A stretch of 64,000 nucleotides of DNA from an uncultured Acidobacteriaceae bacterium. Lineage in GTDB: Bacteria; Acidobacteriota; Terriglobia; Terriglobales; Acidobacteriaceae. Positions 48,844-64,000 of this stretch are shown in pieces (the stretch's first letter is position 1; each line of letters starts with the position of its first letter). The position numbers were made by a program, and so were the translations under genes. The notes under the pieces were generated by a model that was given only the letters and a program-made list of their open reading frames with translations, did not search any database and was not told the origin of the DNA. Where the stretch lies: contig CAVQHM010000029.1 of assembly GCA_963712295.1 (NCBI GenBank), positions 63,704 through 127,703 on the forward strand. The letters run 5' to 3'.

Positions 48844-50190
48844 TCAGCGCGCCAGCAGCATCACCGATTCGATGTGAAACGTCTGGGGGAAGAGATCGAA
48901 TAAGTGTGCTTCCTCGATGTGGTAGCCGGCCGCCAGAAGGGGGGCGAGATCCCTGGCCAGCGTCGCCGGATCGCACGAAACGTACCGGACTCGGGGCGCT
49001 CCGAGTTCCACCAGAGAACGGATCACCGCTTTGCCGGCGCCAGCGCGGGGAGGGTCCAGGACAACCAAATCAGTCCGATTTCGCACTGGCCGGCTTCGCA
49101 GATCATCGCTCCTAAGGTAATCCTCGGTTCGCGCGCCGACCGCTTTCACGTTCGCAGGCACATTCTGCACCAAGTCCCCGTGCGCTGTCTGTGACGCCTC
49201 TACAGCAAAAATGTGACGAAAACTGCCAGCCAAGGCCGCCGAAAATAGTCCCACACCGGCATAGAGGTCGAGTGCGAGGTCTCCGCCGGCGTTGCCGGTC
49301 ACGACCGAAACCAGGTCGTCGATCAGATGGCGGTTCACCTGAAAAAAGGCTCCCGCGCTGACCTGATATTCGTGCTCCTTGGTTTGATAGCCAATGGTTT
49401 GATAGGCAATGGTTCGATAGCGGATCGCCTTCGCGCCCGATTGCGCCAGCGCCTTCGGATCGGGCATTTCATCTTCTTCCACCCGCCGCCGCGAAGCGAA
49501 GAACGTCACGCCGCTGATTTCCGGCAACTCGCGCTGAATCGCCTCCGCCCAGCGCAACAGGTCTCTCTTGTCTGCCTCGCGTCCGCAAAAAGCCCAGGCC
49601 AGCAAATGCTCGTCGGCCGCATCCGCGAACAGCTCGATCTCTTCGACCGCTGCCGGGCAGTTCAATCCGCCGAGCTCAACCAAGCGCGCCATCATCCGAT
49701 TGAGCAGCGGCGAGCTGATCGGACATTCGCCGATGGGAAGAAACTCGTGCGAGCCGAACCGGAAGTATCCCAGCGCAAATCCGAACAATGTCCGCACCTG
49801 CAGCCGCGTCCGGTTGCGATAGTTCCACGGAGGAGAAGGGTGCAACCGAATCTCAGCCGTCAGCTCAATCTTCGCGATCCGCCGCAGCGTCTCGTGCAGA
49901 ATTCCAGCTTTGAACTCCAGTTGCCGCTCGTACGGGATGTGCTGGTAATGGCATCCGCCACATTGGCGAAAGTACGTGCAGCGAGCCTCGACGCGATCAG
50001 ACGACGCTTCGATCAACCGCGCAACGGAGCCGCGCGCGAACCCAGGTTTTTCTAGCCCAATCTCGGCCTCAACTTTTTCTCCCGGCAAAACAAACGGCAC
50101 AAACACCGCCATGCTGCGCCCATCCGCGCCGGGAGCCGTCCGTGCCAGCCCGTCACCGCCGTAAATCAGTTTTTCGATGGAAAGAAGCAT
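48844..50190 (-). CDS. rlmD: 23S rRNA (uracil-5)-methyltransferase RlmD/RumA family
   Basis: TRAM-like N-terminus, the Fe-S motif CTYFRQCGGCHYQH, SAM motifs LDLYAGVGLF and VLDPPRAG, and a catalytic Cys in YVSCDPATLARD. Confidence 0.85.
   Translation of the reverse strand: MLLSIEKLIYGGDGLARTAPGADGRSMAVFVPFVLPGEKVEAEIGLEKPGFARGSVARLIEASSDRVEARCTYFRQCGGCHYQHIPYERQLEFKAGILHETLRRIAKIELTAEIRLHPSPPWNYRNRTRLQVRTLFGFALGYFRFGSHEFLPIGECPISSPLLNRMMARLVELGGLNCPAAVEEIELFADAADEHLLAWAFCGREADKRDLLRWAEAIQRELPEISGVTFFASRRRVEEDEMPDPKALAQSGAKAIRYRTIAYQTIGYQTKEHEYQVSAGAFFQVNRHLIDDLVSVVTGNAGGDLALDLYAGVGLFSAALAGSFRHIFAVEASQTAHGDLVQNVPANVKAVGARTEDYLRSDDLRSRPVRNRTDLVVLDPPRAGAGKAVIRSLVELGAPRVRYVSCDPATLARDLAPLLAAGYHIEEAHLFDLFPQTFHIESVMLLAR
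49381..49425. repeat. 15-bp tandem repeat x3 in frame in rlmD
   Basis: GGTTTGATAGCCAAT, GGTTTGATAGGCAAT, GGTTCGATAGCGGAT, encoding IRYRT IAYQT IGYQT on the minus strand. Confidence 0.85.
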
Positions 50191-50220
50191 GGGATTCGAT
50201 GTGCAATGAGTCGGTTCTCC

Positions 50221-50245
50221 ACTGAGAACTGAGAACCGAGAACTG
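50221..50245. repeat. Family C partial copy
   Basis: ACTGAGAACTGAGAACCGAGAACTG. Confidence 0.6.
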
Positions 50246-50248
50246 TTC

Positions 50249-50959
50249 TTAGTGCATATAGAACAAACTCAGCCGTGGCACGCCGCATCGCTCCAGCAGC
50301 CGCTTGCGCACATACTGCTTATGCAACTGTTCAACCTGCGCCGCCGTCATGTTCCGCCGGTAAGGAGCAATGTCCCGATCCGCTTCCGCCCGCACATTGA
50401 CCAGATCATCGTCCGGAGCCGCCGCCATCAGCACCGCGAACAGCTTTTCCTCCAGCACGGTCAACCGCCGCTCCAAATCTTCCAGACGCGGAAGTTGACC
50501 CGAGCTCTCGATGGCCTCCGCTATCTCACGCAGCGAACCTGCTTCTTCCCGTGCCAGCGCGACAGTCGCGAATCCTGCGCGCTCGGGCAGCTTCGCTTTC
50601 TCCAGCTTCGCAGCACTGTCGCGCAAGAATGCGGCAATCTGCGCCGCTTCAAATCCAGGCTCGCGCTGAGCTCTTTCGTCACCGCCAGCGCCCACCGCCG
50701 CTTCCTTCATATCCTCCGCTGCCGCCAGCACCGCCTGCGAACAGTACGCCAGACTATTCACCTTTTTCGATTTCGACGGGCCCCGATCGTACTTGTCAAA
50801 CGCGTCATCCACCCCGCGGAGCACCGCCTCCAGCGGCACGCCCGCGCTCTTCCAAGTCTCAATCAGAGCCCAATCAAGCGTCGAAAGCAGCAGATGCGTC
50901 CCACGCCGCCGCAAATAGTGCTCTTCGATTTCGGTGAAATAATTGAAGTAATTTTCCAC
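50249..50959 (-). CDS. Hypothetical protein; N-terminus faintly DnaD-like
   Basis: 236-aa ORF. FTEIEEHYLRRRGTHLLLSTLDWALIETWKSAGVPLEAVLRGVDDAF resembles the DnaD/DnaB_2 repeat pattern (low confidence). Confidence 0.55.
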   Translation of the reverse strand: MENYFNYFTEIEEHYLRRRGTHLLLSTLDWALIETWKSAGVPLEAVLRGVDDAFDKYDRGPSKSKKVNSLAYCSQAVLAAAEDMKEAAVGAGGDERAQREPGFEAAQIAAFLRDSAAKLEKAKLPERAGFATVALAREEAGSLREIAEAIESSGQLPRLEDLERRLTVLEEKLFAVLMAAAPDDDLVNVRAEADRDIAPYRRNMTAAQVEQLHKQYVRKRLLERCGVPRLSLFYMH

Positions 50960-50970
50960 GACGGTTCTAG

Positions 50971-51052
50971 AGAGGTCAAAGGTCAGACGTCAGATTGCAG
51001 AGGTTAGAACCCAAGGTTTCACCTCTGCAATCTAGACCTCTGACCTCTCACC
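50971..51052. repeat. Family D hairpin after coaX
   Basis: Arms 50971..51004 and 51019..51052. Confidence 0.8.
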
Positions 51053-51962
51053 TCGTTTTAGAAGATTTCGGCGAGGGCCAAGGTTTCGCGGCGGCATCCG
51101 AGGCTTTGGCCGAGGTCCTCACCGTCTTCGGCGCGGCTTCGCGCCGGAAGGACTGGTTCCGATCCCAGAGAATGCGCAGCCCCTCGAGCGTAAGAAACTC
51201 GTCCACATCCTTAATGAAGCCTGAAGCGGTGCCCAGCAGCGATCCCAGGCCGCCCGTCGCCAGCACATGAGTTTCCGGCCCCAACTCATCCACCAGTCGC
51301 TCCAGGATGCCGTCGACCAGCCCGAGATACCCGTAGTAAAGTCCCGACTGCAAACTGCCGACCGTAGTCGATCCAATCACCCGCGCCGGCTTGCGAATCT
51401 CCACCCGCGGCAGCCTGGCCGTACGTTGAAACAGCGCGTCCGCGGAAATCCCAATCCCCGGACAAATCACGCCGCCCATATACTCGCCCTTCTTGGAAAT
51501 ACAGTCGAAGGTCGTAGCCGTGCCAAAGTCCACAATCACGCACGGCCCCCCATATTTCTCAAACGCCGCCACCGCGTTGACGATCCGGTCAGCGCCCACT
51601 TCCGCCGGATTGTCGTACAGCACCTGCATGCCCGTCTTGACCCCGGGCTCGATGAACAGCGGTTTGATGTTGAAATAGCGCTCGCACACCAGTCGCAGAA
51701 CCGGATCAAGCGGCGGCACCACCGATGAAATCACGATCCCGTCGACATCCGAAACTTCCAGGTTGTCCATGGAGAAAAGGTTGCGGAAGATCACTCCGTA
51801 CTCGTCGACGGTGCGGCCCAGGTGCGAACCGACGCGCCAGTGCGCCACCAGCCGCTCGTAACGCGCCGCCTCCGCAGTCACATCCTCGCCCGGACGATGC
51901 GCCGCCGCCGCAAAAACGCCCAGCACCGTATTCGTGTTTCCGACATCGATGACTAACAGCAT
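51048..51962 (-). CDS. coaX: Type III pantothenate kinase with basic C-terminal extension
   Basis: MLLVIDVGNTNTVLGVF, GADRIVNAVAA and VDFGTATTFD. Confidence 0.88.
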   Translation of the reverse strand: MLLVIDVGNTNTVLGVFAAAAHRPGEDVTAEAARYERLVAHWRVGSHLGRTVDEYGVIFRNLFSMDNLEVSDVDGIVISSVVPPLDPVLRLVCERYFNIKPLFIEPGVKTGMQVLYDNPAEVGADRIVNAVAAFEKYGGPCVIVDFGTATTFDCISKKGEYMGGVICPGIGISADALFQRTARLPRVEIRKPARVIGSTTVGSLQSGLYYGYLGLVDGILERLVDELGPETHVLATGGLGSLLGTASGFIKDVDEFLTLEGLRILWDRNQSFRREAAPKTVRTSAKASDAAAKPWPSPKSSKTR

Positions 51963-52042
51963 ATTTGTAATTGGTAATTTGTAATCGGTAATTTGAAAGC
52001 ACCAGTCTTTCAATTACAAATTACAAATCACAAATTACCAAT
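51963..52042. repeat. AT-rich inverted repeat (TTTGTAATTGGTAATTTGTAATCGGTAATTTG ... CAATTACAAATTACAAATCACAAATTACCAAT)
   Basis: Lies between the coaX start and the birA stop. The right arm supplies the last birA codons. Confidence 0.8.
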
Positions 52043-53134
52043 GATCCTCACCGTCCCACTAACCACCGTCCGCAACCCCTCCGCCGTCCTGACGCGCAAG
52101 AACCCGCGCTCATCCAACCCCTCGGTAACGCCCTCCAGGCCGCCGTTCTCCTCGATCGTCACATTGCTGCCGCGCACCGACGAAGAACTCGCCTCGAACC
52201 GGCGCAAGATCCCCGCCCGCGCTCCCGCATTTGCCACCAAACCCCGATACTCCCGGTCGAGCGATTTTAGCAAAGCGGCGCAGAGTTCCACGCGCGACCA
52301 CTCCGTGCCGGTCTCGATCCGCAACGAGGTCGCAATCTCGCGCAGCTCCGCCGGAAACTTCACCTGATTCACGTTGATCCCGACGCCCACGACCAGGTGG
52401 CGCACTCGCGTCACTTCGGCATTCATCTCCGTAAGAATGCCGCAGAACTTCTTTCCGCCAAGCAGCAGGTCGTTGGGCCATTTCAGATCGACGGACAGCT
52501 GCGGAGCAATCTCCGCCACCGCCGAGCGTATCGCCAGTCCCGCAGCCAGCGAAAAAATGAGCGCATCCGAGGGCGGCATCGCCGGACGCAGGATCGCCGA
52601 GCAGTAGATTCCCGCCGACCGCGCCGAATGCCAGGTGTGCGCGCCGCGCCCCCGTCCCGCCAGCTGTTCTTCGGCAAGAAAGACGCTGCCTTCGGGCGCG
52701 CCCTCCATCGCGGCTCGCATCGCCTCCAAATTGGTCGAACCGATCTTGTAATAATGATGAATCTGCTTGGCGCTGATTTCGCGACTAGGTTTTGGGTAGG
52801 GCACGGCTTCAGCCGTGCCGTCCGCGGTCTCGAGAGACGTGGGCTTCAGCCCCTGAGGGACACGCCTTCCGCCCCCGCCAAAGATCGTCCCCTTCAACGA
52901 CGGCGCCAACATCTCCGGCAACAACAGGTCTGGGACCGCCCGCAGTTGATAGCCGGTTGCCGGATGTCCAGCGACATCCACGCCCAACCCGCGCAGTTGC
53001 TGAATCAGCCGCCAGACTTCCGACCGGCTAGTGCCAATCTCCTCGGCAATCTTCGTGCCGCTGACGACAACGATAGCGTGGTCCATCAGCAGCCGCACAA
53101 TGCGGCCCAGGCGAACGTCAGTCGCCTTGTGCAC
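52028..53134 (-). CDS. birA: Bifunctional biotin--[acetyl-CoA-carboxylase] ligase / biotin operon repressor
   Basis: N-terminal HTH (ISGTKIAEEIGTSRSEVWRLIQQLRGLG) and the ligase motif GRGRGAHTWHS. The start is uncertain (GTG at 53134 or further upstream). Confidence 0.85.
   Translation of the reverse strand: MHKATDVRLGRIVRLLMDHAIVVVSGTKIAEEIGTSRSEVWRLIQQLRGLGVDVAGHPATGYQLRAVPDLLLPEMLAPSLKGTIFGGGGRRVPQGLKPTSLETADGTAEAVPYPKPSREISAKQIHHYYKIGSTNLEAMRAAMEGAPEGSVFLAEEQLAGRGRGAHTWHSARSAGIYCSAILRPAMPPSDALIFSLAAGLAIRSAVAEIAPQLSVDLKWPNDLLLGGKKFCGILTEMNAEVTRVRHLVVGVGINVNQVKFPAELREIATSLRIETGTEWSRVELCAALLKSLDREYRGLVANAGARAGILRRFEASSSSVRGSNVTIEENGGLEGVTEGLDERGFLRVRTAEGLRTVVSGTVRIIGNL
52794..52859. repeat. 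Hairpin pair (GCACGGCTTCAGCCGTGC and GGGCTTCAGCCCC) inside the birA reading frame
   Basis: Translated as GLKPTSLETADGTAEAVPYP, between the HTH and ligase domains. Confidence 0.8.
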
Positions 53135-53199
53135 CGACGGCAGGCTGCGAGTTTTGGTGGAAGTGGAGATGGAGGGAATTATAACCAGTCGCTGGTGAT

Positions 53200-53255
53200 C
53201 GTGTGGGGACGGGCGCCCTCGCCCGTCCAGCCGAGCGCAGCTCGGCAGCCGCCGC
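53200..53255. repeat. Family E bipartite element
   Basis: CGTGTGGGGAC-GGGCGCCCTCGCCC-GTCC-AGC-CGAGCGCAGCTCGG-CAGC. Confidence 0.85.
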
Positions 53256-53258
53256 ACC

Positions 53259-54137
53259 CTAAGCCGGCATCACGCGCATACTCATATCCACCGCCGTCGA
53301 GGAATGCGTCAGCGCCCCGACCGAAATGAAGTCCACGCCCGTCTCCGCGTACGACCGCACGTTCTCCAGATTGATTCCGCCCGCGCACTCCAGCGGAATC
53401 CTCCGCGGCTGGTGCGAACAAATCTCGACTGCCTTGCGCACGTCTTCAACGTTCATATTGTCGAGCAGGATCGCCTCCGCCCCGTGGCCCAGCGCCTGCT
53501 GCAGTTCTTCGAGCGACCGCACTTCAATCTCGATCGGCTGACGCCCGCGCCGGTTGCGGATCGCCCGCTCCAGCGCCGGAATCGCGCCCCCGGCCAGCGC
53601 AATATGATTGTTCTTAATCAACACGCCGTCGGAAAGATCCAGTCGGTGATTCTGCCCGCCGCCGCAGCGCACCGCGTATTTATCAATCACGCGCAGTCCC
53701 GGCGCCGTCTTGCGCGTATCGAGAATCCGCACGCGCGTGTCTTCCACCGCATCGACAAACTTGCGGGTCGTGGTCGCGATTCCGGCCATGCGTTGCAGAA
53801 AATTAAGAATCACCCGCTCGCACGATAGAACCACCCGCGCGTTATGCCGGATCACCGCGATTTGTTGCCCCGGTTTCACGCGGATCCCATCAAACATCGA
53901 AGGGTGGCTAGTCACGTCGTAATGCGAAGTGACGGCCCCGTCGAGCGCCGCATAGACGTCAAGAATCCGCGGCACGCATCCCAGACCAGCCAGTATGCAC
54001 TCCTGCTTGGCGATGACCGTCGCCGAGGCCCGCTGGTTAGGATCGATGCAGGCATAGCTGGTAGCATCGCGCGTGGCCCGATCTTCGGTCAGCGCGTTCT
54101 CCAAAATCGCCGTAATGCGTCGTGAATTCCAGTCCAT
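53259..54137 (-). CDS. nadC: Nicotinate-nucleotide diphosphorylase (carboxylating), quinolinate phosphoribosyltransferase
   Basis: 292 aa. RILDTRKTAPGLR, KNNHIALAG, and a C-terminal GVDFISVGALTHS. Confidence 0.88.
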   Translation of the reverse strand: MDWNSRRITAILENALTEDRATRDATSYACIDPNQRASATVIAKQECILAGLGCVPRILDVYAALDGAVTSHYDVTSHPSMFDGIRVKPGQQIAVIRHNARVVLSCERVILNFLQRMAGIATTTRKFVDAVEDTRVRILDTRKTAPGLRVIDKYAVRCGGGQNHRLDLSDGVLIKNNHIALAGGAIPALERAIRNRRGRQPIEIEVRSLEELQQALGHGAEAILLDNMNVEDVRKAVEICSHQPRRIPLECAGGINLENVRSYAETGVDFISVGALTHSSTAVDMSMRVMPA

Positions 54138-54142
54138 GATCG

Positions 54143-54224
54143 CGTAGGGACGGACGCATTCGTCCGTCCAACCTCACGTAGGGACAGCCGCCCTCGGCTG
54201 TCCAGCGGCTCGAAGAGCCGCAGC
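54143..54224. repeat. Two adjacent family E units between nadC and valS
   Basis: CGTAGGGACGGACGCATTCGTCCGTCC, and CGTAGGGACAGCCGCCCTCGGCTGTCCAGCGGCTCGAAGAGCCGCAGC. Confidence 0.85.
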
Positions 54225-54232
54225 TCACTGTA

Positions 54233-57107
54233 TTACGAGCAGCCCAACTCTTTCATCTTGGCGAGGATTTTTTCCCGCAGCACCTTCAACTCTTCCGCCC
54301 GCGCCGTCAGCCCCTCCACGACCTTCACCGGCGCCTTCGCCAGAAACTGTTCGTTCGAAAGCTGCCGCTGCCCGTTGGCGATCTCCTTCTCGATCTTCTC
54401 CAACTCCTTCTTCAGTCGCTCACATTCCGCCGCAACGTCGATCTTCTTTTCGTATAGCGCATGCACATCAAACCGCGAAGTACTGCGAGCCCCCGGCAGG
54501 TTTGCCAGCGACCTTTCCACGAATGTGACCTTCTCCACACTCCCCAGCCGCTCGATCGCCGCCAGATTCCTCTCGAGCATCGCGCGAATCTCCGGATTCA
54601 TGCGCAAACACCTCGATCGGCACTTTGATCTTAGGCTCGACTTTCAATTCCGCCCGCAGATTGCGCACCGCAACGATCAGGTCCTGCAGGATCGCCATCT
54701 CCGTTTCAGCGCCCAGGTCAATCTGCGTTTCATCCGCGGCCGGATAGGCCGCCAGCGCAATCGACTTCAGCGGAGGCGTGCCATCGTACATCGCCTGCCA
54801 GATTTCTTCCGTGATAAACGGCATCACCGGATGCAGCAGCCGCAAAGAAGCCTCAAACAAATTGACGAGATTCGCACATGCGACTCGCGCCGCGATCGTG
54901 TGGGGACGGGGCTCTGCCCCGTCCAGGGCGGGCCGGAGAACCGCCTCCACACTTTCCTCATTCAGCCGTGGCTTGATCAGTTCCAGGTACCAGTCGCAAA
55001 ACTCGCCCCAGAAAAAATCGTAGATGCGAGTCGCGGCCTCATCGAAGCGATAAGTCTCCAGCGACTCGTTCACGTCGCGAGTCGCGCGATTGAACCGCGA
55101 GAGAATCCACCGGTCCTCAAGCGAACCAACCTCAAACCCGGCAACGCCCACGTAGGGGCGGACGCATTCGTCCGCCCCGGGCCGCAGGCCCGCGTCGATC
55201 CGGTCCACATTCATGAACATCAACCGAGCCGCATTCCATATCTTATTGGCAAAATTCCGATACCCCGCCGTGCGGCTCTCGCTAAACGCGATATCGGTCC
55301 CCGGCGCCGCCATCGCCGCCAGGGTAAAGCGCGTCGCATCGGTTCCGTACTTCCCGATGACTTCAATCGGATCGAGCACGTTCCCCTTCGTCTTCGACAT
55401 TTTCTGCCGGTCCGCATCGCGCACCAGCGCGTGGATATAAACTTCGCGAAAGGGAACGCTCGCGCGCAGCGCATCTTCTTCCGACCCCAAACTTGCCTCA
55501 GAACGCTGGCCCGGCCTGTGCGGCGGCATCATGAACCAGCATCCCAGCATGATCATGCGCGCCACCCAGAAAAACAGAATGTCAAAGCCGGTGATCATCA
55601 GCGAATTGGGATAGAAAACTTCCTCGTCGCGAGTCGCCGCAGGCCAGCCCAAAGTAGTGAACGGCAGCAACCCCGAAGAAAACCAAGTGTCAAGCACGTC
55701 CGCATCCTGCTCCAGGTTCTTGCTGCCGCATTTGCAAGCCGCAGGAGCCTCGCGCGCCACGATCACTTCCCCGCAAGCGCCGCAATACCAAGCCGGGATC
55801 CGGTGTCCCCACCACAACTGCCGCGAGATGCACCAGTCGTGGATGTTCCGCATCCAGTTCAAATAAATCTGCCCGTAATTTTCCGGCGTGAACCGTATGT
55901 ATCCCTTCTCGACAACCTCAATCGCCCGCTTCGCCAGCGGCGCAATCTTGACGAACCACTGCGTCGAGAGCCGCGGCTCGACAATCGTGCCCGAGCGGTC
56001 GCACTTGCCCAAAGCAATCGTGTAATCCTTGGTGCCCACGAGGTACCCTTGCTCCGCCAGGTCTTCCACCACATGCGCGCGCGCCGCAAAGCGATCCAGC
56101 CCCGCGTAACGGCCGGCATTCGCATTCATCTTCGAGTGCTCGTCAATCACTTCGATCTGCGGCAGGTTGTGTCGCAGTCCGGCCAGGAAGTCGTTGGGAT
56201 CATGCGCCGGCGTGACCTTCACCGCGCCCGTGCCAAACTCCGGCTGGGCCAGTTCGTCGGCGATGATCGGAATCTCCCGATTCATCAGCGGCAGCATCAC
56301 ATGCTTACCCAGCAGATGCGTGTAGCGTTCGTCTTTAGGATTGACCGCGACCGCCGTGTCGCCCAACATCGTCTCCGGACGCGTAGTCGCCACGGTAATA
56401 AATTGCGTAGGGACAGCCGCCCCCGGCTGTCCAGCGGCGCGAGGCGCCGCAGCCTCTGTGTCCACCACCGGATACCGGATCTCATACAGCTTGCCCGCGA
56501 TGTCCTCGTGCTTCACTTCGAGGTCCGAGATCGCCGTGCCGCAGTCGGAACACCAGTTCACGATGTACTTCCCGCGATAGATCAGCCCCTCTTCATACAG
56601 CCGCACGAACACTTCCTTCACCGCGTGTGACAGCCTGTCGTCCATGGTGAAGTATTCCCGGCTCCAATCGACCGAAGCGCCCAGCCGTTTCATCTGATCG
56701 AGAATCGCGCTGCCGTACTCGCGCCGCCATTCCCAGACGCGCTCCAGAAACTTCTCGCGCCCCATCTCGCGCCGCTTCTTGCCTTCTTTCAAAAGCTGGC
56801 GCTCCACCAGCATCTGCGTCGCGATGCCGGCGTGGTCGGTCCCCGGCAGCCAGAGCGAGACGAAGCCGCGCATGCGCTGCCAGCGCACCATGACGTCCAT
56901 CTGCGTCTGTTCCATCATGTGCCCCATGTGCAGCCGCCCGGTCACATTGGGAGGAGGCAACAACAGCGTGAACACAGGACGCACATCTTTTTCGGACGAA
57001 CTGGGCGGAGGCGTCTCCACCTGAAACAGTTTTTCCCGGACCCAATACTCGGCCCAGCGCGCTTCAATCGCGCCCGGTTCGTAAGCTTTCGGCAATTCGT
57101 GCGGCAT
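54233..57107 (-). CDS. valS: Valine--tRNA ligase; frame broken by one extra base near 54600..54607
   Basis: HIGH region PPPNVTGRLHMGH and KMSKS region KMSKTKGN. ORF 54233..54607 encodes the C-terminal coiled coil (ERLKKELEKIEKEIANGQRQLSNEQFLAKAP) in the adjacent frame. Confidence 0.9.
54897..54934. repeat. Family E unit inside the valS frame
   Basis: CGTGTGGGGACGGGGCTCTGCCCCGTCCAGGGCGGGCC, translated as RPALDGAEPRPHTI. Confidence 0.8.
55151..55183. repeat. Family E unit inside the valS frame
   Basis: CGTAGGGGCGGACGCATTCGTCCGCCCCGGGCC, translated as PGADECVRPYV. Confidence 0.8.
56406..56453. repeat. Family E bipartite unit inside the valS frame
   Basis: CGTAGGGACAGCCGCCCCCGGCTGTCCAGCGGCGCGAGGCGCCGCAGC, translated as AAAPRAAGQPGAAVPT just before the conserved ITVATTRPETMLGD. 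Confidence 0.85.
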
Positions 57108-57120
57108 CTTGTGTGGCTCA

Positions 57121-57166
57121 CGTGGGGACGGACGCATTCGTCCGTCCCAGCCAGGCATAGCCTGGC
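57121..57166. repeat. Family E unit just upstream of the valS start
   Basis: CGTGGGGACGGACGCATTCGTCCGTCCCAGCCAGGCATAGCCTGGC. Confidence 0.8.
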
Positions 57167-58246
57167 AGATTTTCCCGGCACCATGAGGGAATCTTTGATC
57201 TTACAGTCGCAAGAAAAGAAGGGTCAAACGCGCGAGGGGGTAATACGCACTGAGGGGATTTTACTACCCCCCCCACTGACCTTGCACCCTGAAGGGCCGG
57301 GGGGCGCGCGACGGGGGTGGGTGGTTGCGCTGGCTAGGTGGGCGGGGTAAAGCGCTCGTCTGAAGCTGCCAAGAGTCTGCGCCCGCCTGAAGAGGCGGCC
57401 GCCGTCGAGTTCGTATTCAAGTACGGTCTGGCGCTGACAGCAATGGGCTTACTAGATTCTGTGAAAAGAACGCCCGAGTGGGCCGACAATGAGGCTGCCT
57501 GCCGAGAACATATCCGGCAGAGCGCGGCTGGGGTCGCACGTGTGATTGTCCCCTTGTGCCTTTCGTTGCCAAAGACGCTGCCGAAGCTTGCCCACACCTG
57601 AGTCGTAGTGACCCAACCCACCCAACCTTTTTCATGGGAAGCCCGGGGACGGGGAAGCCACAACCAGCCGAGATCGAAATCCATTGACTTAAGAACCGTC
57701 GTGCGCAACGATAGAGATCGGATTGGGGCAGTTTCGAGGTGTATCTGTCGACCTAGACGGCCCTCGAAGCTGCCCCGAACCAATTTTCGGGGCTCTTTGA
57801 TAATGCAAGTCGTTGGTTCTTAAAGACTTTACCCGCAAGTCCTTTAAACCCAAAGATCTGGCGGGAGCCACCTCCCAAGTCTTTGATTCCCAAAGACCGA
57901 GCGATGGGGGGAGGGGGTACCCTTCTAACTAAGTCAGCTATGTCAAACCGGTGAATAGCCAAGAAAACTCGGACAGTCGCAGCGAAGCCAAAAATAATGA
58001 AGGCTTAGTTAAATCGATTCACACGCCGCAAATGATCGTCGTCGAAGCAAATCGGGAAATTCGCCGATGCACTTCCCTCAAGAAAGGTTGCAAATAACCG
58101 ATACCAGCGGTAGTATGACTTTGGATGCTGTTTTTCGCGTCCACCCTTATCCGAACAAACACAACTTCCAGGTAGAAACGCAACCCTAGGTTTTAGACCA
58201 AATCTAAAGGGGCGCCCAAGGCCCCGGTGCAATTCGGAGAGAATGC

Positions 58247-58993
58247 ATGTCGTGGTACGCGTACTGCCTCACCGAACACCAGACCCTAGCAAATGGTGTT
58301 CGCGCCCGTCGTCCCTTCGTTCTCGATGGAATCCAAGGTGTGAACTCCGCTCCTGTCATGAGCTACCCGAGCGGAGAATTCGCGGTGATCGTCAGTGAAT
58401 ACGACCGCACCACCTCCAAACTCGACGAAAAGTCGGTTCTGGAACATGCCCGCGTGGTCAGCCAGAGCTTCCGAACCGCCACCGTCTTGCCCTTCCGCTT
58501 CGGAACGATCTTCGACACCGAAGATGCCATCCGCCAGGCGGTGCGAGCCAACCGCCGGACGTTCTGCGAGAGCGTGGAGCGGCTGCGCGGCAAGTCCGAA
58601 ATGCGCATCAAGCTGGTGGTTCGCGACGGTTCTCCCCGCGGTTCCATGGACGAGATCGTCCTGCCCGATACCGTCGGCCGCGAGTACCTGATCAAGCTGC
58701 GCGAGAAGGCGTCCCGGGAGCGTGAGCGCCAGACCAAAGCCCGCGCCCTCTCCGTCCAGGTGCACAAGCTCTTCAACCCCCTCGAGGAAGAAGTCAGCTG
58801 CAAGAAGGTGGATGCCGACGGAATGTTGCTCGATATCGCACACCTGATCGACACCAAGTCGATCGAAAAGTATCAGAACCGCTACAGCACGGCCGCCAAG
58901 CAACTCAAGAACTGCCAGCTGTTCGTGACCGGTCCCTGGCCGCCCTACCACTTCCTGCCCGGCAAGGTACGCACCGTTGCCGGCGACAGCTAG
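58247..58993 (+). CDS. GvpL/GvpF family (gas vesicle accessory-like) protein, orphan
   Basis: GGAGAG ends 6 nt before the ATG. Has the family hallmarks SWYAYCL at the N-terminus, TVLPFRFGTIF in the middle, and FVTGPWPPYHF near the C-terminus. Confidence 0.8.
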   Translation: MSWYAYCLTEHQTLANGVRARRPFVLDGIQGVNSAPVMSYPSGEFAVIVSEYDRTTSKLDEKSVLEHARVVSQSFRTATVLPFRFGTIFDTEDAIRQAVRANRRTFCESVERLRGKSEMRIKLVVRDGSPRGSMDEIVLPDTVGREYLIKLREKASRERERQTKARALSVQVHKLFNPLEEEVSCKKVDADGMLLDIAHLIDTKSIEKYQNRYSTAAKQLKNCQLFVTGPWPPYHFLPGKVRTVAGDS

Positions 58994-59012
58994 AAACGAT
59001 TGATTGGTCCCA

Positions 59013-59039
59013 AGCCCCCTTTCGAGGGGGCTTTTTTTT
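59013..59039 (+). terminator. Rho-independent terminator after the gvpL/F-like gene
   Basis: AGCCCCC-TTTCGA-GGGGGCT followed by TTTTTTT. Confidence 0.85.
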
Positions 59040-59048
59040 GAGGGGTGT

Positions 59049-59114
59049 TGCGTAGAGGCGCGGTTTGCCGCGTCTCCGGCGGCGGAGGAGACGGCGCAAG
59101 CCCCGTCTCTACAG
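59049..59114. repeat. Family E subfamily (GTAGAG...CTCTAC double hairpin)
   Basis: GTAGAGGCGCGGTTTGCCGCGTCTC + GGAGACGGCGCAAGCCCCGTCTCTAC. The reverse complement matches 62300..62366. Confidence 0.8.
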
Positions 59115-59401
59115 CAAAGTGCAGTTTTGTGCATCTGGCCACCCTTCATCCGACATTGGCGGGCCCGCGTTGCGCGTTGGGGAATTACCCTAAAATATTG
59201 ATTTTGAACAGTTTCCGGAATGGCAATTGCCTTCAGCCCGATTCCGCATTTTGGTTCTGCAAATGCTCAGCTCCAGTGCACTAAAGAGGTCGTGCTCGTT
59301 TGACAAACTTCACTCTCGATGCTCTCGACATCTCACTCTGTCCGTTCCATTTCCCGGAGCGGCGTCCCTTAGCTGTCCTCTGATTCCCGCCACTTAACCT
59401 C

Positions 59402-59428
59402 TTTGAAAAGGGTGGCCCCGAAAGGGGC
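59402..59428 (+). terminator. Rho-independent terminator with GAAA tetraloop, no annotated gene upstream
   Basis: GGTGGCCCC-GAAA-GGGGCCGC followed by TTTTTTT. Confidence 0.7.
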
Positions 59429-59478
59429 CGCTTTTTTTGTTTCTCGCGCTCCTGTACACTCGCGGTTTCTTATGAACT

Positions 59479-60500
59479 TTGAAAGAACGCATGATCCAGG
59501 CCGAAACCCGCGCCGACGACGGCATGCAATTGATGCGCGTCGAAACCTTCCAGTTCTCCGACCCTGACGAAATTTCCGTCCGATGCGGAAGTAGAAGCCA
59601 TCGTGCGGAAGATGGCCAGCGATTTGAGCGCGTTACGGACGGCTCCACTCGCCGAGCCTTATAGCGGCCCCGCATTGCTCTCCGGCCGCGCGGCCGCCGT
59701 TTTTTTTCATGAAGTGCTCGGCCATCGCGTCGAAGGACAGAGGCAGCGCGGCCGCGACGAAGGCCAGACTTTCACCAAGAAGGTCAACGAAAAAATCCTG
59801 CCCGAATTCCTCAGCGTCACCGACGACCCCACGCTGCACACGCTCGCGGGCACGGAACTGTCGGGCTTTTATCGCTACGACGACGACGGCATTCCCGCCT
59901 CGCGCGTCGAGGTGGTCAAGGACGGCATCCTGAAAAATTTTCTTATGGGACGATTGCCGGTAAAGAACTTCGGCAACTCCAACGGCCACGGCCGCGCCCA
60001 GCAGGGACTGATGCCTGTCGGCCGCCAGGGCAATCTGATCGTGACTTCTTCAAAAACCGTTCCCGACGCTCAGCTGCGCTCCCGCTTCATCGAGGAAATC
60101 AAGAAGCAGGGAAAGCCCTACGGGCTCTACTTCGAAGACATTCAGGGCGGATTCACTCTGACCACGCGTGAACTGCCGCAAGCCTTCCAGGTGTTGCCGG
60201 TCATGGTGTGGCGGGTTTATGCGGATGGGCGTCCCGACGAACTGGTCCGCGGAGTCGATATCGTTGGCACCCCGCTTACCGTGCTTACCCAGATCGAGGC
60301 CACCGGAGACACCACCAGCGTCTTCAACGGCATCTGCGGAGCCGAATCGGGCAGCGTTCCTGTATCCGCAGCCGCACCGGCCATGCTGTTTTCCGACATG
60401 GAAGTGCAGAAGAAAAAGTACGGCGACGAGCGTCCTCCGATTCTTCCGCCGCCACCCGGTGCGACGGACGAGAAAAGGAGGTGCACAGTGATGCGCCGCG
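59479..60500 (+). pseudogene. TldD-type metallopeptidase, 5'-truncated fragment with a one-base frame break near 59569; no stop before the next module
   Basis: The catalytic region FFHEVLGHRVEG and the downstream SNGHGR and GICGAESGSVPVSAAAP are retained. The upstream frame (IQAETRADDGMQLMRVETFQFSDPD) begins right after a TGA at 59473, and the N-terminal domain of about 230 aa is absent. The end coordinate is approximate. Confidence 0.7.
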
Positions 60501-60547
60501 TTATGTTGGGTTCGATGTCTGGGATATTCTTTAGAACCTTTATGAAT

Positions 60548-60577
60548 TGTCATCCTGAGCGAAGCGAAGGACCTGCT
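60548..60577. repeat. Family B half copy inside the long ORF 59603..62293
   Basis: TGTCATCCTGAGCGAAGCGAAGGACCTGCT, with no right arm nearby. Confidence 0.8.
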
Positions 60578-60622
60578 GTTTGTCGGCGGTCGGCGAAAAC
60601 TGCGAATTCCTCAACGCGAGCG

Positions 60623-62293
60623 ATGTCCGCCGCCCTCGCCTTCGCGGCAGCCCTTTTCGCGCTGCTCGTCTTTGCGCCCATTCCGGCTGCCGCTTCCGCC
60701 AGTTCCGCTTCCGGCGATCCCGTCCTCCGCGCCCTTCGCGAGGAAATGGACCGCTCCAAAGCCAAGCTGAAAATGGACGGCGTACCGGCGCCGTATTACA
60801 TCGAATACCGCGTTACCGAGATCGACCAGTACGATGCCAGCGCCGTCTTCGGAGCACTGCGCAACCAGCAGCATAATCACGGCCGCCTGTTGCGCGTCGT
60901 GGTCCGCGTCGGCGACTACAAGCAGGACAGCTTCTACGGCATGGGAGAAGGCGCCGTCGACCTCGTTCCCTCCGACGACGATGTCTTCGCCATCCGCCAC
61001 CGCATCTGGCTCGCCACCGATCGCGCCTACAAGGCGGCCAGCGAAGCGCTTTCCGCCAAGCAAGCCGCCCTGAAGCAGTTGAAGGTCGATGAGCCCGTTG
61101 ACGATTTCGCCAAAGCCTCGCCGGTCGAATCGATCGAGCCTCTCGCCCATTTTCCCGCGGCCGAACTAACTTCGGACTTTCCTTCCTGGTTGCATCTTCT
61201 CGAAGAGGCTTCCGGCCAATATCGCACCGACAAAGACCTGGAGAACTTCGACTCCTCGTTGCGGTTCACCGTCGAAAACCGTTACTTCCTGAACTCCGAG
61301 GGCACGGTCGCCCGCTCCGGTCATACGCACTACGTCGTCTCCATCGCGGGATCGACCCAGGCGTCGGACGGCATGTTGCTGCAGCGGTCGCACGCCGACC
61401 AGGGCAACGATCTCAAGGATCTCCCCACCCGCGAACAATTTCTCAAAACCACTGCCCGCATCCTCGAAACCCTGAAGACACTGCGTGACGCGCCGGTGGT
61501 CGACGAGGAATACCGCGGCCCGGTGCTGTTCTCGAACGACGCCGCCGCTACTGTAGTCACCGAACTCGTGGAGCCGAATGTTCTCGGCCGAAAGCCCCAG
61601 CTCGGCGAGAACGCCCGCACCACGGGGAAATGGTCCAGCAGCTACAAATCGCGCGTGCTGCCCGACTTCATCAACTTGTTCGACGACCCGACAATCTCCG
61701 CCATTTCCGGCCAGCCCTTGTTCGGCAACTACACTCTCGACGACGAAGGCGTGAAAGCCCAGCGCGTCTCCCTGATCGAGAAAGGGCAACTCGTCTCCTA
61801 CCTCATCGGACGCCAGCCGATTCGCGATTTCCCCGCGTCGAACGGACACGGCCGGGCCGCTGCCGCCGCAGCGCCCGCGCCTCACCCCGGCAATCTCGTT
61901 CTGCAGTCGACCGATCCCCAACCGGACGCCGGCCTCAAGGCAAAGTTGATCGAGCTCTGCAAGAACCGCGACCTGCCCTACGGACTCTACGTCGAAACCA
62001 TGGGACCGCGACTCGAGCCCCGGCTCCTCTATCGCATCTACACCAAAGACGCGCGTGAAGAACTAGTGCGCGGCGGCGTCTTCGGAGATCTCGACGTCCG
62101 CTCGCTGCGCAGCGATCTGATCGCCGCCGGAACCGCGCCCGCCATCGAAGACCGCTCTGAGCCCGTCTGGTTCAGCGTCGCCAGCCCGGCGCTGCTGTGC
62201 GACGAGCTCCAGGTCAAGCGGTCGCAAGCCGCCAAGCAGAAGCTTCCCGAGTACCCCGCGCCCGCGCTCAGCCAGGCCGCGAACCGGCCGTGA
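60623..62293 (+). CDS. TldD/PmbA-family protein, secreted, lacking the HExxxH motif (PmbA/TldE-like partner)
   Basis: Signal peptide MSAALAFAAALFALLVFAPIPAAASA. Collinear with the upstream fragment (NGHGRA, YGLYVE) but has VTELVEPNVLG where the paralogue has FFHEVLGHRVEG. Confidence 0.75.
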   Translation: MSAALAFAAALFALLVFAPIPAAASASSASGDPVLRALREEMDRSKAKLKMDGVPAPYYIEYRVTEIDQYDASAVFGALRNQQHNHGRLLRVVVRVGDYKQDSFYGMGEGAVDLVPSDDDVFAIRHRIWLATDRAYKAASEALSAKQAALKQLKVDEPVDDFAKASPVESIEPLAHFPAAELTSDFPSWLHLLEEASGQYRTDKDLENFDSSLRFTVENRYFLNSEGTVARSGHTHYVVSIAGSTQASDGMLLQRSHADQGNDLKDLPTREQFLKTTARILETLKTLRDAPVVDEEYRGPVLFSNDAAATVVTELVEPNVLGRKPQLGENARTTGKWSSSYKSRVLPDFINLFDDPTISAISGQPLFGNYTLDDEGVKAQRVSLIEKGQLVSYLIGRQPIRDFPASNGHGRAAAAAAPAPHPGNLVLQSTDPQPDAGLKAKLIELCKNRDLPYGLYVETMGPRLEPRLLYRIYTKDAREELVRGGVFGDLDVRSLRSDLIAAGTAPAIEDRSEPVWFSVASPALLCDELQVKRSQAAKQKLPEYPAPALSQAANRP

Positions 62294-62299
62294 CCGGTT

Positions 62300-62366
62300 C
62301 GTGTAGAGACGGGGCTGGCCCCGTCTCCGTCCGCTGCGAAGACGCGGCAAGCCGCGTCTCTACAGG
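62300..62366. repeat. Family E subfamily (GTAGAG...CTCTAC double hairpin), inverted partner of 59049..59114
   Basis: GTAGAGACGGGGCTGGCCCCGTCTC + GAAGACGCGGCAAGCCGCGTCTCTAC. Confidence 0.8.
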
Positions 62367-62418
62367 AGGGTGAATGCCCGATGTGAACTCTTCTCCCGCC
62401 CACGCAAGCGGGTTTCGT

Positions 62419-62448
62419 TTGACCGATTTCCACAACGCACGATAGACT
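62419..62448 (+). promoter_or_regulatory. Candidate sigma70-type promoter for rplU-rpmA-obg (TTGACC-N18-TAGACT)
   Basis: Hexamers at 62419..62424 and 62443..62448, about 160 nt upstream of rplU. Confidence 0.3.
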
Positions 62449-62546
62449 AGTTGAGTTTGCCTGTACTTGCGGACCCGTTCTGGGGCCGCGCCGCGTTTCC
62501 GGTCAGAAGCCGCAGCGGGAAAACAGCAAGCATACTTAGGGTATCT

Positions 62547-62594
62547 GCCGAGCTGCGCTCGGTTTGGACGGGCGAGGTCGCCCGTCCCCACACG
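62547..62594. repeat. Family E bipartite element (inverted orientation) in the rplU leader
   Basis: GCCGAGCTGCGCTCGG-TTT-GGACGGGCGAGGTCGCCCGTCCCCACACG. Confidence 0.8.
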
Positions 62595-62607
62595 ATAAGG
62601 AGAGTTT

Positions 62608-63078
62608 ATGTACGCGGTAATCCGCGCAGGTGGAAAGCAGTATCGGGTAGCCCCGGGCGATGTAGTCCGGATGGAAACACAGGAAGACAAGGACGGAAAG
62701 ATCGAGTTCGGCGATGTGCTGGCGGTTTCCGCCGAGGCGGGCAGCGTTCTGCCTCCGGGGTCGGGAGCGAGCGTAACGGGCGAAGTCGTCGAGCAGGGAC
62801 GCGGCAACAAGATCCTGGTCTTCCACTACAAGCGCAAGAAGCAATACAAAAAGCTGCGGGGACACCGGCAGGACTACACCGCGGTCCGCATCACCGAGAT
62901 CGCCTTTGATGGGCAGTCGTTCAAAGCGCCCGAGCTTCCGAAGAAAGAGAAGAAGGAAAAGAAGGCTCATGAGGGCGGCGAAGAAGTGAAAGCATCGGCG
63001 CGGCCGGGGAAGACGGGGAAGAAGGCGGTCGCGAAGAAGCCGGCGGCGAAGAAAGCCGCGAAAGCGAAGAAGAAGTAG
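62608..63078 (+). CDS. rplU: 50S ribosomal protein L21 with Lys-rich C-terminal extension
   Basis: AAGGAGAG Shine-Dalgarno sequence. MYAVIRAGGKQYRVAPGDVV...ILVFHYKRKKQYKKLRGHRQ, then a tail of about 50 aa, KKEKKEKK...AKKPAAKKAAKAKKK. Confidence 0.9.
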   Translation: MYAVIRAGGKQYRVAPGDVVRMETQEDKDGKIEFGDVLAVSAEAGSVLPPGSGASVTGEVVEQGRGNKILVFHYKRKKQYKKLRGHRQDYTAVRITEIAFDGQSFKAPELPKKEKKEKKAHEGGEEVKASARPGKTGKKAVAKKPAAKKAAKAKKK

Positions 63079-63138
63079 GGGTCCTTCGACTCCGTTAGCT
63101 TTTCACTTCGTGAAAAGCTAGCTCCGCTCAGGATGACA
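63079..63138 (+). terminator. Hairpin (TAGCTTTTCA/TGAAAAGCTA) embedded in a family B right-arm half copy
   Basis: A 10-bp perfect stem at 63096..63105 / 63111..63120 with loop CTTCG. The flanks GTCCTTCG...GCTCAGGATGACA are family B. No clear T run, so terminator function is uncertain. Confidence 0.45.
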
Positions 63139-63200
63139 ATTTGGTTTTGGGTGGAAAGAGATTGGGAATTACTGGCAACTGGCCACTGGAAACTGATTTT

Positions 63201-63470: not shown

Positions 63471-63537
63471 AGCGCAGACAGGTTGCGTGTTGCGTCCACG
63501 TCTAGAGTTTCGTATCGCTGCATCGCTTCGTATCAGG

Positions 63538-64000
<463 letters not shown>

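What the first reader, a model, noticed from the sequence alone, without database searches (positions are those of the whole stretch)
53200..54224. Family E elements share conserved flanks while the stem sequences covary
Units at 53200, 54143, 54177, 54897, 55151, 56406, 57121, 62547 and 63778 keep the frame CGT(A/G)(G/T)GGGAC ... GTCC(A)GC. The enclosed stems differ yet stay complementary. Examples are GGGCGCCCTCGCCC, GGACGCATTCGTCC, AGCCGCCCTCGGCT, GGGGCTCTGCCCC and AGCCGCCTTCGGCC. Many units add a second small hairpin such as CGAGC-GCAG-CTCGG, GGCTC-GAAG-AGCCG or GGCGC-GAGG-CGCCG. Preserved pairing with changing sequence indicates selection or a copying mechanism acting on structure. This could be REP-like, a terminator, a recombination site, or a protein or RNase target.
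Basis: seen in the sequence. Interest (0 to 1): 0.6.

Follow-up and report, generated by a model that had tools for sequence, protein, structure and literature searches.

The report
REP hairpin repeats tied to RAYTs
The "Family E" units are real copies of a well-known kind of small bacterial hairpin repeat (REP elements). Their stems differ because several sub-families coexist, each matching the repeats that flank its own RAYT transposase gene in related peat-soil acidobacteria.

Summary
All nine units exist as described. Each has an unpaired head (CGTAG, CGTGG or GTGTGG), a 9-bp GC hairpin with a 3-5 nt loop, and usually a second 7-bp hairpin. The genome holds about 215-280 such units, and about 430 with close variants.

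Covariation is real. In copies collected by the frame alone, 187 of 215 have all five inner pairs Watson-Crick (mean 4.80 against 3.84±0.05 shuffled). On a 148-copy alignment, both-side changes number 185 against 54 shuffled.

In hairpin 1 the changes fall into a few discrete head-plus-stem classes, not many independent events. Hairpin 2 varies more freely: at least 15 perfect stems.

The units meet the published definition of GT[AG]G-tagged REPs. In sister genomes, paralogous RAYT (Y1/HUH) transposases are each flanked by one class. On a tree of 84 RAYTs, the flanking stem changes 30 times against 61±1.7 for shuffled labels.

This genome's assembly keeps only one RAYT of that clade, flanked by the GGAG-headed class. 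The classes seen in the window have no cognate RAYT here.

The units are not intrinsic terminators and match no Rfam family.

Verdict: a new member of a known kind.

The parts
53200..53248 (+). Unit of the GTGTGG-head / GGGCG-stem class. Sequence: CGTGTGG-GGACGGGCG-CCCT-CGCCCGTCC-A-GCCGAGC-GCA-GCTCGGC-AG. It lies between the birA start region and the nadC stop.
   Evidence: ssDNA fold -21.5 kcal/mol, z -4.7
54143..54169 (+). Unit of the CGTAG-head / GGACG-stem / CATT-loop class. It has hairpin 1 only and is directly followed by the next unit as a tandem direct pair.
   Evidence: -11.6 kcal/mol, z -4.5
54177..54223 (+). Unit of the CGTAG-head / AGCCG-stem / CCCT-loop class, with hairpin 2 GCGGCTC-GAA-GAGCCGC.
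   Evidence: -20.3 kcal/mol, z -5.9
54897..54945 (+). Unit with a GTGTGG head and the rare GGGGC stem (GGACGGGGC-TCT-GCCCCGTCC), with a degenerate hairpin 2. It lies in frame inside valS (peptide ..LDGAEPRPHT..). The site is empty in most congeners.
55151..55193 (+). Unit with a CGTAG head, stem GGGCGGACG-CATT-CGTCCGCCC and hairpin 2 GGGCC-GCA-GGCCC. It lies in frame inside valS (peptide ..GLRPGADECVRPYV..). The site is occupied across the genus, but with different stem classes in different species.
56406..56452 (+). Unit of the CGTAG-head / AGCCG-stem / CCCC-loop class, with hairpin 2 GCGGCGC-GAG-GCGCCGC. It lies in frame inside valS (peptide ..AAGQPGAAVPTQ..). The site is empty in G012, G013, G001 and G003.
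57121..57167 (+). Unit with a CGTGG head, GGACG stem and CATT loop, with hairpin 2 GCCAGGC-ATA-GCCTGGC. It lies just upstream of the valS start, antisense to valS.
   Evidence: -21.8 kcal/mol, z -8.1
62547..62594 (-). Unit of the GTGTGG-head / GGGCG-stem / ACCT-loop class, with hairpin 2 CCGAGC-GCA-GCTCGG. It lies about 15 nt upstream of the rplU start, antisense to rplU.
63778..63832 (-). Unit of the CGTAG-head / AGCCG class with one A.C mismatch (GGACAGCCG-CCTT-CGGCCGTCC), with hairpin 2 GCGGAGC-GAA-GCTCCGC. It lies upstream of the obg-like gene.

Best explanation
Family E is a population of GT[AG]G-tagged REP elements, a class of small non-autonomous ssDNA hairpin repeats.

Anatomy of a unit:
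- an unpaired guide-like head (GTAG or GTGG, 0-2 nt from the foot);
- a 9-bp GC stem with a 3-5 nt loop;
- usually a second 7-bp hairpin.

Proposed mechanism. The units are substrates of REP-associated tyrosine (HUH/Y1) transposases (RAYTs). A RAYT binds the folded hairpin plus head in single-stranded DNA, then cuts and rejoins it. This spreads copies without target duplications. Only copies that fold are substrates, so a stem change survives in the population only if it is compensated.

Why the stems differ. The different stems are separate lineages. In the genus, each head-plus-stem class is the one that flanks a particular RAYT paralogue, and stem identity tracks the RAYT tree. The pattern of conserved flanks with covarying stems is therefore the footprint of RAYT-REP co-diversification plus amplification of a few master sequences.

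Hairpin 2 is constrained only in shape, not in sequence.

Shown here: structure, copy number, discrete classes, statistical covariation, REP-flanked RAYT genes (REPtrons) in relatives, co-diversification, and filled versus empty sites between species.

Inferred: binding, cleavage, the single-stranded intermediate, and which enzyme moves the classes that have no cognate RAYT in this assembly.
For: Anatomy and excess over chance.

Discrete head-stem classes:
- GTGG head with GGGCG stem, 87 copies;
- GTAG head with AGCCG stem, 41 copies;
- GTAG head with GGACG stem, 22 copies;
- GGAG head with GGGCG stem, 20 copies.

Formal pair counts beat both the shuffled and the slid controls. Hairpin 2, which was not selected on pairing, is perfect in 146 of 215 copies. 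About 44 perfect non-consensus copies fall into at least 15 stems, against 19 one-mismatch copies.

RAYT in this genome. C5:29719-30216 scores 84 bits on NF047646 (cut-off 80). It carries the HUH motif VVMPDHVH and the Tyr motif Y..NPVRAGLV. GGAG-headed hairpins flank it on both sides.

Paralogous RAYTs in congeners, by the class that flanks them:
- CGTAG-GGACAGCCG plus hairpin 2, in inverted pairs (G006);
- GTGTGG-GGACGGGCG or GGGCGGGCG (G198 and G180);
- GTGTGG-CGCGGGCG;
- GGGCGGACG with the CATT/AATG loop (L121).

Of 95 RAYT loci, 88 have a headed perfect hairpin of at least 8 bp within 330 nt. On a tree of 84 RAYTs, the flanking stem (27 states) needs 30 changes. Shuffled labels need 61.1±1.7, with a minimum of 55 in 1000 shuffles.

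Copy number in 41 congeners runs from 0 to 226.
- It is higher where the RAYT clade is present: median 60.5 against 13, one-sided Mann-Whitney p=0.005.
- The AGCCG class is commoner where its cognate RAYT type is present: median 14 against 2, p=0.008.

Genomic context is REP-like. Units are enriched between convergent genes and depleted between divergent ones. Inverted neighbours are always tail-to-tail, 13 against 0. Filled and empty sites occur in orthologous valS. The published definitions match (PMC6006769, PMC3733652).
Against: The assembly is 93% complete and holds only one RAYT of the clade. That RAYT is flanked by the GGAG-headed class. No cognate gene or remnant exists for the GTGTGG and CGTAG classes, which make up the window's units.

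The four largest AGCCG-class populations in the genus (89, 45, 39 and 37 copies) are in genomes with no detectable cognate-type RAYT. Three explanations remain open: cross-mobilisation, gaps in the MAG assemblies, or persistence after RAYT loss.

A single RAYT is often flanked by two different stems (L044, L039, L055). Stem identity is therefore not a strict address.

No within-species insertion polymorphism and no biochemical data were available.

Orientation bias relative to replication is only modest.
- Against GC skew the odds ratio is 0.47, p=0.003.
- There is a switch near dnaA on contig C22.
- The bias is weak in the near-complete genome G132.
Confidence: 0.85

Rival explanations
1. The pairing is kept mainly by a mutational process rather than by selection on transposition. 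Within a quasi-palindrome, template switching or hairpin-templated repair copies one arm onto the other, turning a single change into a compensated pair in place.
For: Hairpin 2 has about 44 perfect non-consensus copies in at least 15 different stems against only 19 one-mismatch copies. The same hairpin-2 variants occur with all three hairpin-1 classes. Hairpin 2 differs even between the REPs that flank one RAYT, so its sequence is not an enzyme address.
Against: Hairpin-1 variants are few, discrete, linked to the head type and shared across genera. That points to inheritance and amplification, not repeated local correction. At the orthologous valS site, each species carries a stem identical to an abundant genomic class. 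That looks like replacement by family members rather than local drift plus correction. The two processes are not exclusive.
Confidence: 0.25
2. The units are kept by the host for a function of their own, with mobility secondary or extinct. Candidate functions are 3' mRNA stabilisers, RNase or Rho-dependent termination signals, or binding sites for nucleoid proteins or gyrase, as reported for E. coli REP/BIME.
For: Units are enriched between convergent genes and depleted between divergent ones: 55, 109 and 14 (convergent, tandem, divergent) against a background of 491, 1761 and 526. There is a mild bias to the sense strand in tandem contexts, 67 against 42. Large, uniform populations exist without a cognate RAYT.
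Against: Copy number among congeners runs from 0 to 226, so no essential host role is conserved. Units sit in both orientations, inside coding frames and in 5' regions. No Rfam family matches.
Confidence: 0.15
3. The units are intrinsic (Rho-independent) transcription terminators.
For: They contain strong GC hairpins, and many lie downstream of genes.
Against: Only 8 of 259 oriented units have four or more T within 34 nt downstream. None of the nine is among the terminator-like sites of the window scan. Three lie in frame inside valS, and two lie just upstream of start codons.
Confidence: 0.02

Closest known systems
GT[AG]G-tagged REP elements with RAYT/TnpA-REP (E. coli REP/BIME; Nunvar 2010 PMC2817692; Ton-Hoang 2012; Messing 2012 PMC3479197; Di Nocera 2013 PMC3733652; Quentin 2018 PMC6006769)
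   Same: Shared features:
- a GTAG or GTGG tetranucleotide 0-2 nt 5' of a fully paired GC stem with a 3-5 nt loop;
- hundreds of copies, mostly extragenic, with some inside ORFs;
- several classes per genome;
- RAYT genes flanked by the repeats (REPtrons);
- RAYT motifs HVH, WQ and Y..NP.
   Different: The host is an uncultured peat or soil Acidobacteriaceae genus. For Acidobacteria, Di Nocera 2013 reported only TIR-flanked tyrosine transposases. Most units carry a second, sequence-free 7-bp hairpin. The assembly holds several large classes but only one RAYT of the clade.
REPIN-RAYT systems of Pseudomonas fluorescens SBW25 (Bertels and Rainey 2011, PMC3116915)
   Same: A vertically persistent RAYT with a matched repeat population. 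Copy number varies strongly between relatives. Inverted tail-to-tail pairs occur, both next to the RAYT and elsewhere in the genome (13 pairs).
   Different: Most copies here are singlets or direct neighbours, not inverted doublets. The genus carries many RAYT paralogues rather than one per REPIN type per genome.
Subterminal hairpins of IS200/IS605 insertion sequences (IS608, ISDra2)
   Same: A Y1/HUH enzyme that recognises a hairpin plus a 5' guide tetranucleotide in ssDNA. The left and right hairpins are similar but not identical. There is no target duplication.
   Different: The repeats here are dispersed on their own, far from any transposase gene. The enzyme is of the RAYT type (NF047646), not the IS200 type (NF033573).
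Rickettsia palindromic elements (RPE; Ogata 2000, as cited in PMC3733652)
   Same: Palindromic repeats tolerated in frame inside essential genes. Here, three units lie inside valS.
   Different: RPEs are longer and have no known RAYT partner. Here the same units are mostly intergenic.

Membership tests
GT[AG]G-tagged REP | A GTAG or GTGG tetranucleotide 0-2 nt 5' of the hairpin foot | tested here: met
   The heads are CGTAG, CGTGG and GTGTGG directly before the stem, and GTGGAG with GTGG 2 nt from the foot. The definition is from PMC6006769.
GT[AG]G-tagged REP | A short hairpin with a fully paired basal stem of 7-20 nt and a loop of 2-5 nt | tested here: met
   The stem is 9 bp and the loop 3-5 nt. 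Of 215 frame-only copies, 187 are perfect. ssDNA folds have z-scores of -3.2 to -8.1.
GT[AG]G-tagged REP | High copy number, dispersed and mainly extragenic | tested here: met
   There are 226 strict matches and about 430 family-like hairpins in 4.29 Mb. By a home-made gene caller, 290 are intergenic and 87 lie inside predicted CDS, some of those calls being false.
GT[AG]G-tagged REP | A RAYT gene flanked by the same repeats (REPtron) | tested here: met
   The RAYT on contig C5 of the window's genome is flanked by the GGAG-headed class. In congeners, the CGTAG-AGCCG, GTGTGG-GGGCG and CATT-loop classes flank paralogous RAYTs. For the window's own classes, no cognate RAYT is present in this assembly.
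GT[AG]G-tagged REP | The RAYT binds and cleaves the REP in single-stranded DNA | not testable with these tools
   This needs biochemistry. Only the sequence motifs of the enzyme were checked.
REPIN (Bertels and Rainey) | The mobile unit is two REPs in inverted orientation forming one long hairpin | tested here: inconclusive
   Within 150 nt there are 13 tail-to-tail inverted neighbours, 10 direct neighbours and no head-to-head pairs. Most of the 259 oriented units are singlets. Inverted pairs do flank the RAYT in G006.
Intrinsic terminator | A GC hairpin followed by a T-run | tested here: not met
   Only 8 of 259 units have four or more T within 34 nt downstream. None of the nine units appears in the terminator-like scan.
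Curated structured RNA family (Rfam 15) | A match to a covariance model | tested here: not met
   No unit matched at E <= 1 in window 50000-64000.

The most novel reading that the evidence does not exclude
The radiation of RAYT paralogues in peat Acidobacteriaceae, each with its own compensated stem under a constant GT[AG]G head, may be a natural specificity series. In it, stem sequence partly addresses a repeat to its enzyme. Yet one surviving RAYT, as in this genome, still maintains several foreign stem classes at high copy number and near-perfect pairing.

Alternatively, these orphan populations and the freely covarying second hairpin are kept perfect by hairpin-templated repair, without any transposase.

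Either outcome would say something new about how REP populations persist after their enzyme is lost.
Probability: 0.2. Interest if true: 0.55.

Novelty: new member of a known kind. Interest (0 to 1): 0.3.

Why it matters
The result explains a conspicuous sequence pattern as an ordinary REP/RAYT system, and it extends such systems to an uncultured acidobacterial genus from peat soils. It also supplies a compact natural data set for asking how RAYTs read their hairpins. The set comprises 84 RAYTs, 27 compensated stem types, one conserved head and a second hairpin constrained only in shape. It flags genomes where large, well-kept repeat populations lack their cognate enzyme. For annotation, it warns that these repeats create spurious ORF extensions, gene fusions and in-frame inserts.

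Tried and rejected
- My first regular expression missed nearly all copies because of greedy variable lengths. It was fixed.
- Loci from other genomes seemed absent from the Python box. They were in fact packed several to a file.
- An apparent perfect strand bias of the units along the G132 chromosome was a listing artefact. The full list shows only a weak bias.
- GC skew in the window's genome is noisy. I report only a modest association plus the orientation switch near dnaA on contig C22.
- I did not build a covariance model. The frame-only collection and the count of structure pairs answered the covariation question, and exact patterns sufficed for the distribution.
- I considered integron attC-like sites and MITEs with terminal inverted repeats and target duplications, and dropped both. 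There are no cassette arrays or integrase. No terminal inverted repeats or duplications are visible at the filled versus empty valS sites.

Full report
**Observation**

Reading window 53000-57400 shows seven + strand units with the described layout. Windows 62500-62640 and 63740-63860 show two more on the - strand. Each unit has:
- an unpaired head (CGTAG, CGTGG or GTGTGG);
- a 9-bp stem GGAC-NNNNN with its complement, closing a 3-5 nt loop;
- in eight of the nine units, a second small hairpin 0-2 nt further on.

Three details differ from the stated frame. The unit at 55151 has GGGC/GCCC as its outer pairs. The base after GTCC varies. The unit at 63778 has one A.C mismatch.

The literal head pattern was too strict and gave only chance hits. 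The hairpin core gave 9 hits against 0.25 expected. As single-stranded DNA, all nine units fold into the two-hairpin shape, with energies of -11.6 to -22 kcal/mol and z-scores of -3.2 to -8.1. No Rfam family matches them.

**Genome-wide inventory**

The window is C29:63704-127703 of a 4.29-Mb, 29-contig assembly that is 93% complete.
- There are 281 perfect hairpins of the GGAC..GTCC type.
- There are 215 copies when only head + GGAC..N13-15..GTCC is required, with no demand on the inner stem.
- There are about 430 hairpins when close stem variants are allowed.

Other head-plus-stem relatives also exist, for example GTGTG-GCGCGGGCG, GGGCGGACA and GGGCGGGCA.

**Covariation**

In the frame-only set, 187 of 215 copies have all five inner pairs Watson-Crick. 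The mean is 4.80 pairs, against 3.84±0.05 when 3' arms are dealt out among copies.

I aligned 148 copies (A5) and wrote the structure by hand. The pair counts were:
- 90.0% of cells paired, against 81.4% in shuffles (0 of 500 shuffles reach it);
- 185 cells changed on both sides, against 53.6±5.8;
- a covariation score of 0.226, against 0.091 shuffled and 0.04-0.07 for partners slid by 1-3 columns.

The outer four pairs of hairpin 1 were fixed by my selection and say nothing. The informative pairs are columns 13-42 (GC 106, AU 35) and 31-40 (GC 82, CG 38, AU 20).

These changes are not scattered. They define discrete classes that are also linked to the head type:

| Head | Stem | Copies |
|---|---|---|
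| GTGG | GGGCG | 87 |
| GTAG | AGCCG | 41 |
| GTAG | GGACG (loop CATT) | 22 |
| GGAG | GGGCG (loop TCT) | 20 |

Rare GGCCG and GGGGC stems also occur. So in hairpin 1 a few compensated events were amplified.

Hairpin 2 was never selected on pairing, and it behaves differently.
- 146 of 215 copies have a perfect 7-bp stem, and 19 have one mismatch.
- At least 15 different stems occur, including GCCGAGC, GCGGAGC, GGCGAGC, GCGGGGC, GCCGCGC and GCGGCTC.
- About 44 copies are perfect but non-consensus.
- The same variants occur with all three hairpin-1 classes.

**What the units are**

The published operational definition of a REP is a GTAG or GTGG tetranucleotide 0-2 nt 5' of a fully paired 7-20 nt stem with a 2-5 nt loop (Quentin et al. 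2018, PMC6006769). Family E meets it.

Di Nocera et al. 2013 (PMC3733652) had already described several matching features:
- GTAG-tagged REP families with degenerate heads such as GTGG;
- several families per genome, each with its own REP-flanked RAYT locus (REPtron);
- REPs inside ORFs, including tRNA synthetase genes.

The genome encodes six Y1 (PF01797) proteins. By NCBIfam, two are IS200-type and four are RAYT-type, one of them broken. Each sits between a different repeat family.

The RAYT at C5:29719-30216 scores 84 bits on NF047646 against a cut-off of 80. It is flanked on both sides by GGAG-headed hairpins whose stem GGACGGGCG is that of the main Family E class.

**RAYT paralogues carry the other classes**

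Searching the genus with the C5 RAYT found orthologues (82-87% identity) and many paralogues (46-61%). I read their flanks.

| RAYT locus | Flanking repeats |
|---|---|
| G006:C6 | canonical CGTAG-GGACAGCCG-CC(C)T units with hairpin 2, as inverted pairs on both sides |
| G198 and G180 | GTGTGG-GGACGGGCG or GGGCGGGCG units, one with the typical AGCCGAGCACAGCTCGGCAG second hairpin |
| G193 and G191 | GTGTGG-CGCGGGCG |
| G006:C65, G181 and G196:C34 | GGAG-headed units at a syntenic site next to hslV |
| G196:C59 | two further stems under a CGTAG head |

I aligned the paralogues (A6) and scanned one genome per species. This gave 498 relatives. The best 80 are mostly peat and soil Terriglobales, Acidobacteriaceae and Candidatus Sulfotelmatobacter MAGs, with some from Planctomycetota and Desulfobacterota.

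Of 95 RAYT loci, 88 have a GT[AG]G-headed or GGAG-headed perfect hairpin of at least 8 bp within 330 nt. One of them (L121) carries the GGGCGGACG stem with the CATT/AATG loop seen at window 55151.

On a maximum-likelihood tree of 84 distinct RAYTs, the flanking stem 8-mer (27 states) needs 30 changes. The minimum possible is 26. Shuffled labels need 61.1±1.7, with a lowest value of 55 in 1000 shuffles. Stem identity therefore follows RAYT lineage while the head stays the same.

**Distribution and copy number**

The strict pattern occurs 226 times in this genome.
- It is found in 39 of 41 sampled congeners, at 0 to 148 copies.
- In a 151-genome class sample, it is frequent only in two other genera of the same family.
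- The same stem-loop classes recur across these genera.

Genomes with an intact member of the RAYT clade have more copies: median 60.5 against 13, one-sided Mann-Whitney p=0.005. The AGCCG class is commoner where its cognate-type RAYT is present: median 14 against 2, p=0.008.

The fit is imperfect. The four largest AGCCG populations (89, 45, 39 and 37 copies) are in genomes without a detectable cognate type, and this genome is one of them. tblastn finds only the C5 member of the clade here and no remnants of others.

Three explanations remain open: gaps in the MAG assemblies, cross-mobilisation by the remaining RAYT, or persistence after loss. Cross-mobilisation is plausible because one RAYT is often flanked by two different stems.

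**Context and rival roles**

I used a simple home-made gene caller (3638 genes, 83% coding). Oriented intergenic units lie between convergent, tandem and divergent gene pairs 55, 109 and 14 times. The background is 491, 1761 and 526. This is the usual REP bias.

Only 8 of 259 units have four or more T within 34 nt, and none of the nine is called terminator-like. Neighbouring inverted units are always tail-to-tail, 13 against 0.

Unit orientation correlates modestly with the sign of GC skew (odds ratio 0.47, p=0.003). It also switches at about 345 kb on contig C22, close to dnaA at 358.7 kb. In the near-complete genome G132 the bias is weak. This is compatible with replication-coupled single-strand transposition but does not prove it.

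**Units inside valS**

Three units lie in frame inside valS. My alignment of ValS from 20 genomes and the DNA of the three sites adds two points.
- The sites of units 56406 and 54897 are empty in several or most congeners. These are filled versus empty alleles with no visible target duplication.
- The site of unit 55151 is occupied across the genus with a conserved second hairpin (peptide GLRP). Its first hairpin belongs to different canonical classes in different species: GGCGGACG/AATG, GGCGGGCA/GGAA, GGACAGCCG/AGGG and GGCGGACA/GGAA.

The second point looks like replacement by other family members rather than slow local drift.

**Mechanism and confidence**

I commit to the REP/RAYT explanation at 0.85. 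Shown are the anatomy, the classes, the statistics, the REP-flanked RAYT loci, the co-diversification and the presence/absence differences between species. Inferred are binding, cleavage, the single-stranded intermediate and the identity of the enzyme acting on the window's classes.

Hairpin-templated correction may contribute, especially for hairpin 2 (0.25 as a contributor). A host function as an RNA or DNA site cannot be excluded without transcript data (0.15).

**Novelty**

This is a new member of a known kind. Other notes of this scan report the same kind of system in other lineages. For Acidobacteria, the 2013 survey reported only TIR-flanked tyrosine transposases. REP-flanked RAYTs in this peat genus therefore extend the host range but not the concept.

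Noticed in passing
window 54600-54625: valS changes frame here. The ORF 54468-57158 runs into a nonsense tail, while the conserved C-terminal coiled coil is in ORF 54233-54607. Congeners have one open frame of 930-990 aa.
   Followed up: partly
window about 52770-52870 (inside the birA-like ORF 52028-53257, - strand): The ORF carries an in-frame insert from a different repeat family (peptide RVPQGLKPTSLETADGTAEAVPYPKP). The same family flanks the RAYT genes on contigs C7 and C3.
   Followed up: partly
window 59603-62293, junction near 60.5-60.65 kb: One 896-aa open frame joins two TldD/PmbA-like genes through a repeat-derived stretch (..CHPERSEGPAV..). This is probably two genes bridged by an open repeat, or another frame error.
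   Followed up: no
G000 contigs C22:365k, C1:7.6k, C19:35.9k, C7:33.9k, C3:12.6k, C5:29.7k: There are six Y1/HUH transposase genes: two IS200-type and four RAYT-type, one of the latter frameshifted. Each is flanked by its own distinct palindromic repeat family, so the genome carries at least six REP-like families.
   Followed up: partly
G000 genome-wide, e.g. C27:6740(-), C6:17280(-), C14:31285(+): 28 of 111 GTGTGG-headed units have a truncated extra copy of head plus 5' half-arm (GTGTGGGGACGGGC..) 15-23 nt upstream, against about 2% expected by chance. Next to the RAYT of G198 (L039), the head alone is repeated three times with a 16-nt period. The origin is unexplained: nested insertion, abortive cleavage and rejoining, or slippage.
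   Followed up: partly
window 55151-55193 and orthologous valS sites in L008-L022: The same valS loop is occupied by a Family E unit in most species of the genus. The first hairpin belongs to different canonical stem classes in different species, while the second hairpin (CCGGGCC-TGC-GGCCCGG, peptide GLRP) is conserved.
   Followed up: partly
G000 contig C22, about 340-360 kb: Unit orientation switches from mostly + (21 of 26) to mostly - (14 of 17) about 10 kb from dnaA (C22:358695). The GC-skew sign changes nearby.
   Followed up: partly
genus-wide (G181, G000, G185, G178): The largest populations of the CGTAG-AGCCG class (89, 45, 39 and 37 copies) are in genomes where no cognate-type RAYT was detected. 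Several of these are incomplete MAGs.
   Followed up: partly
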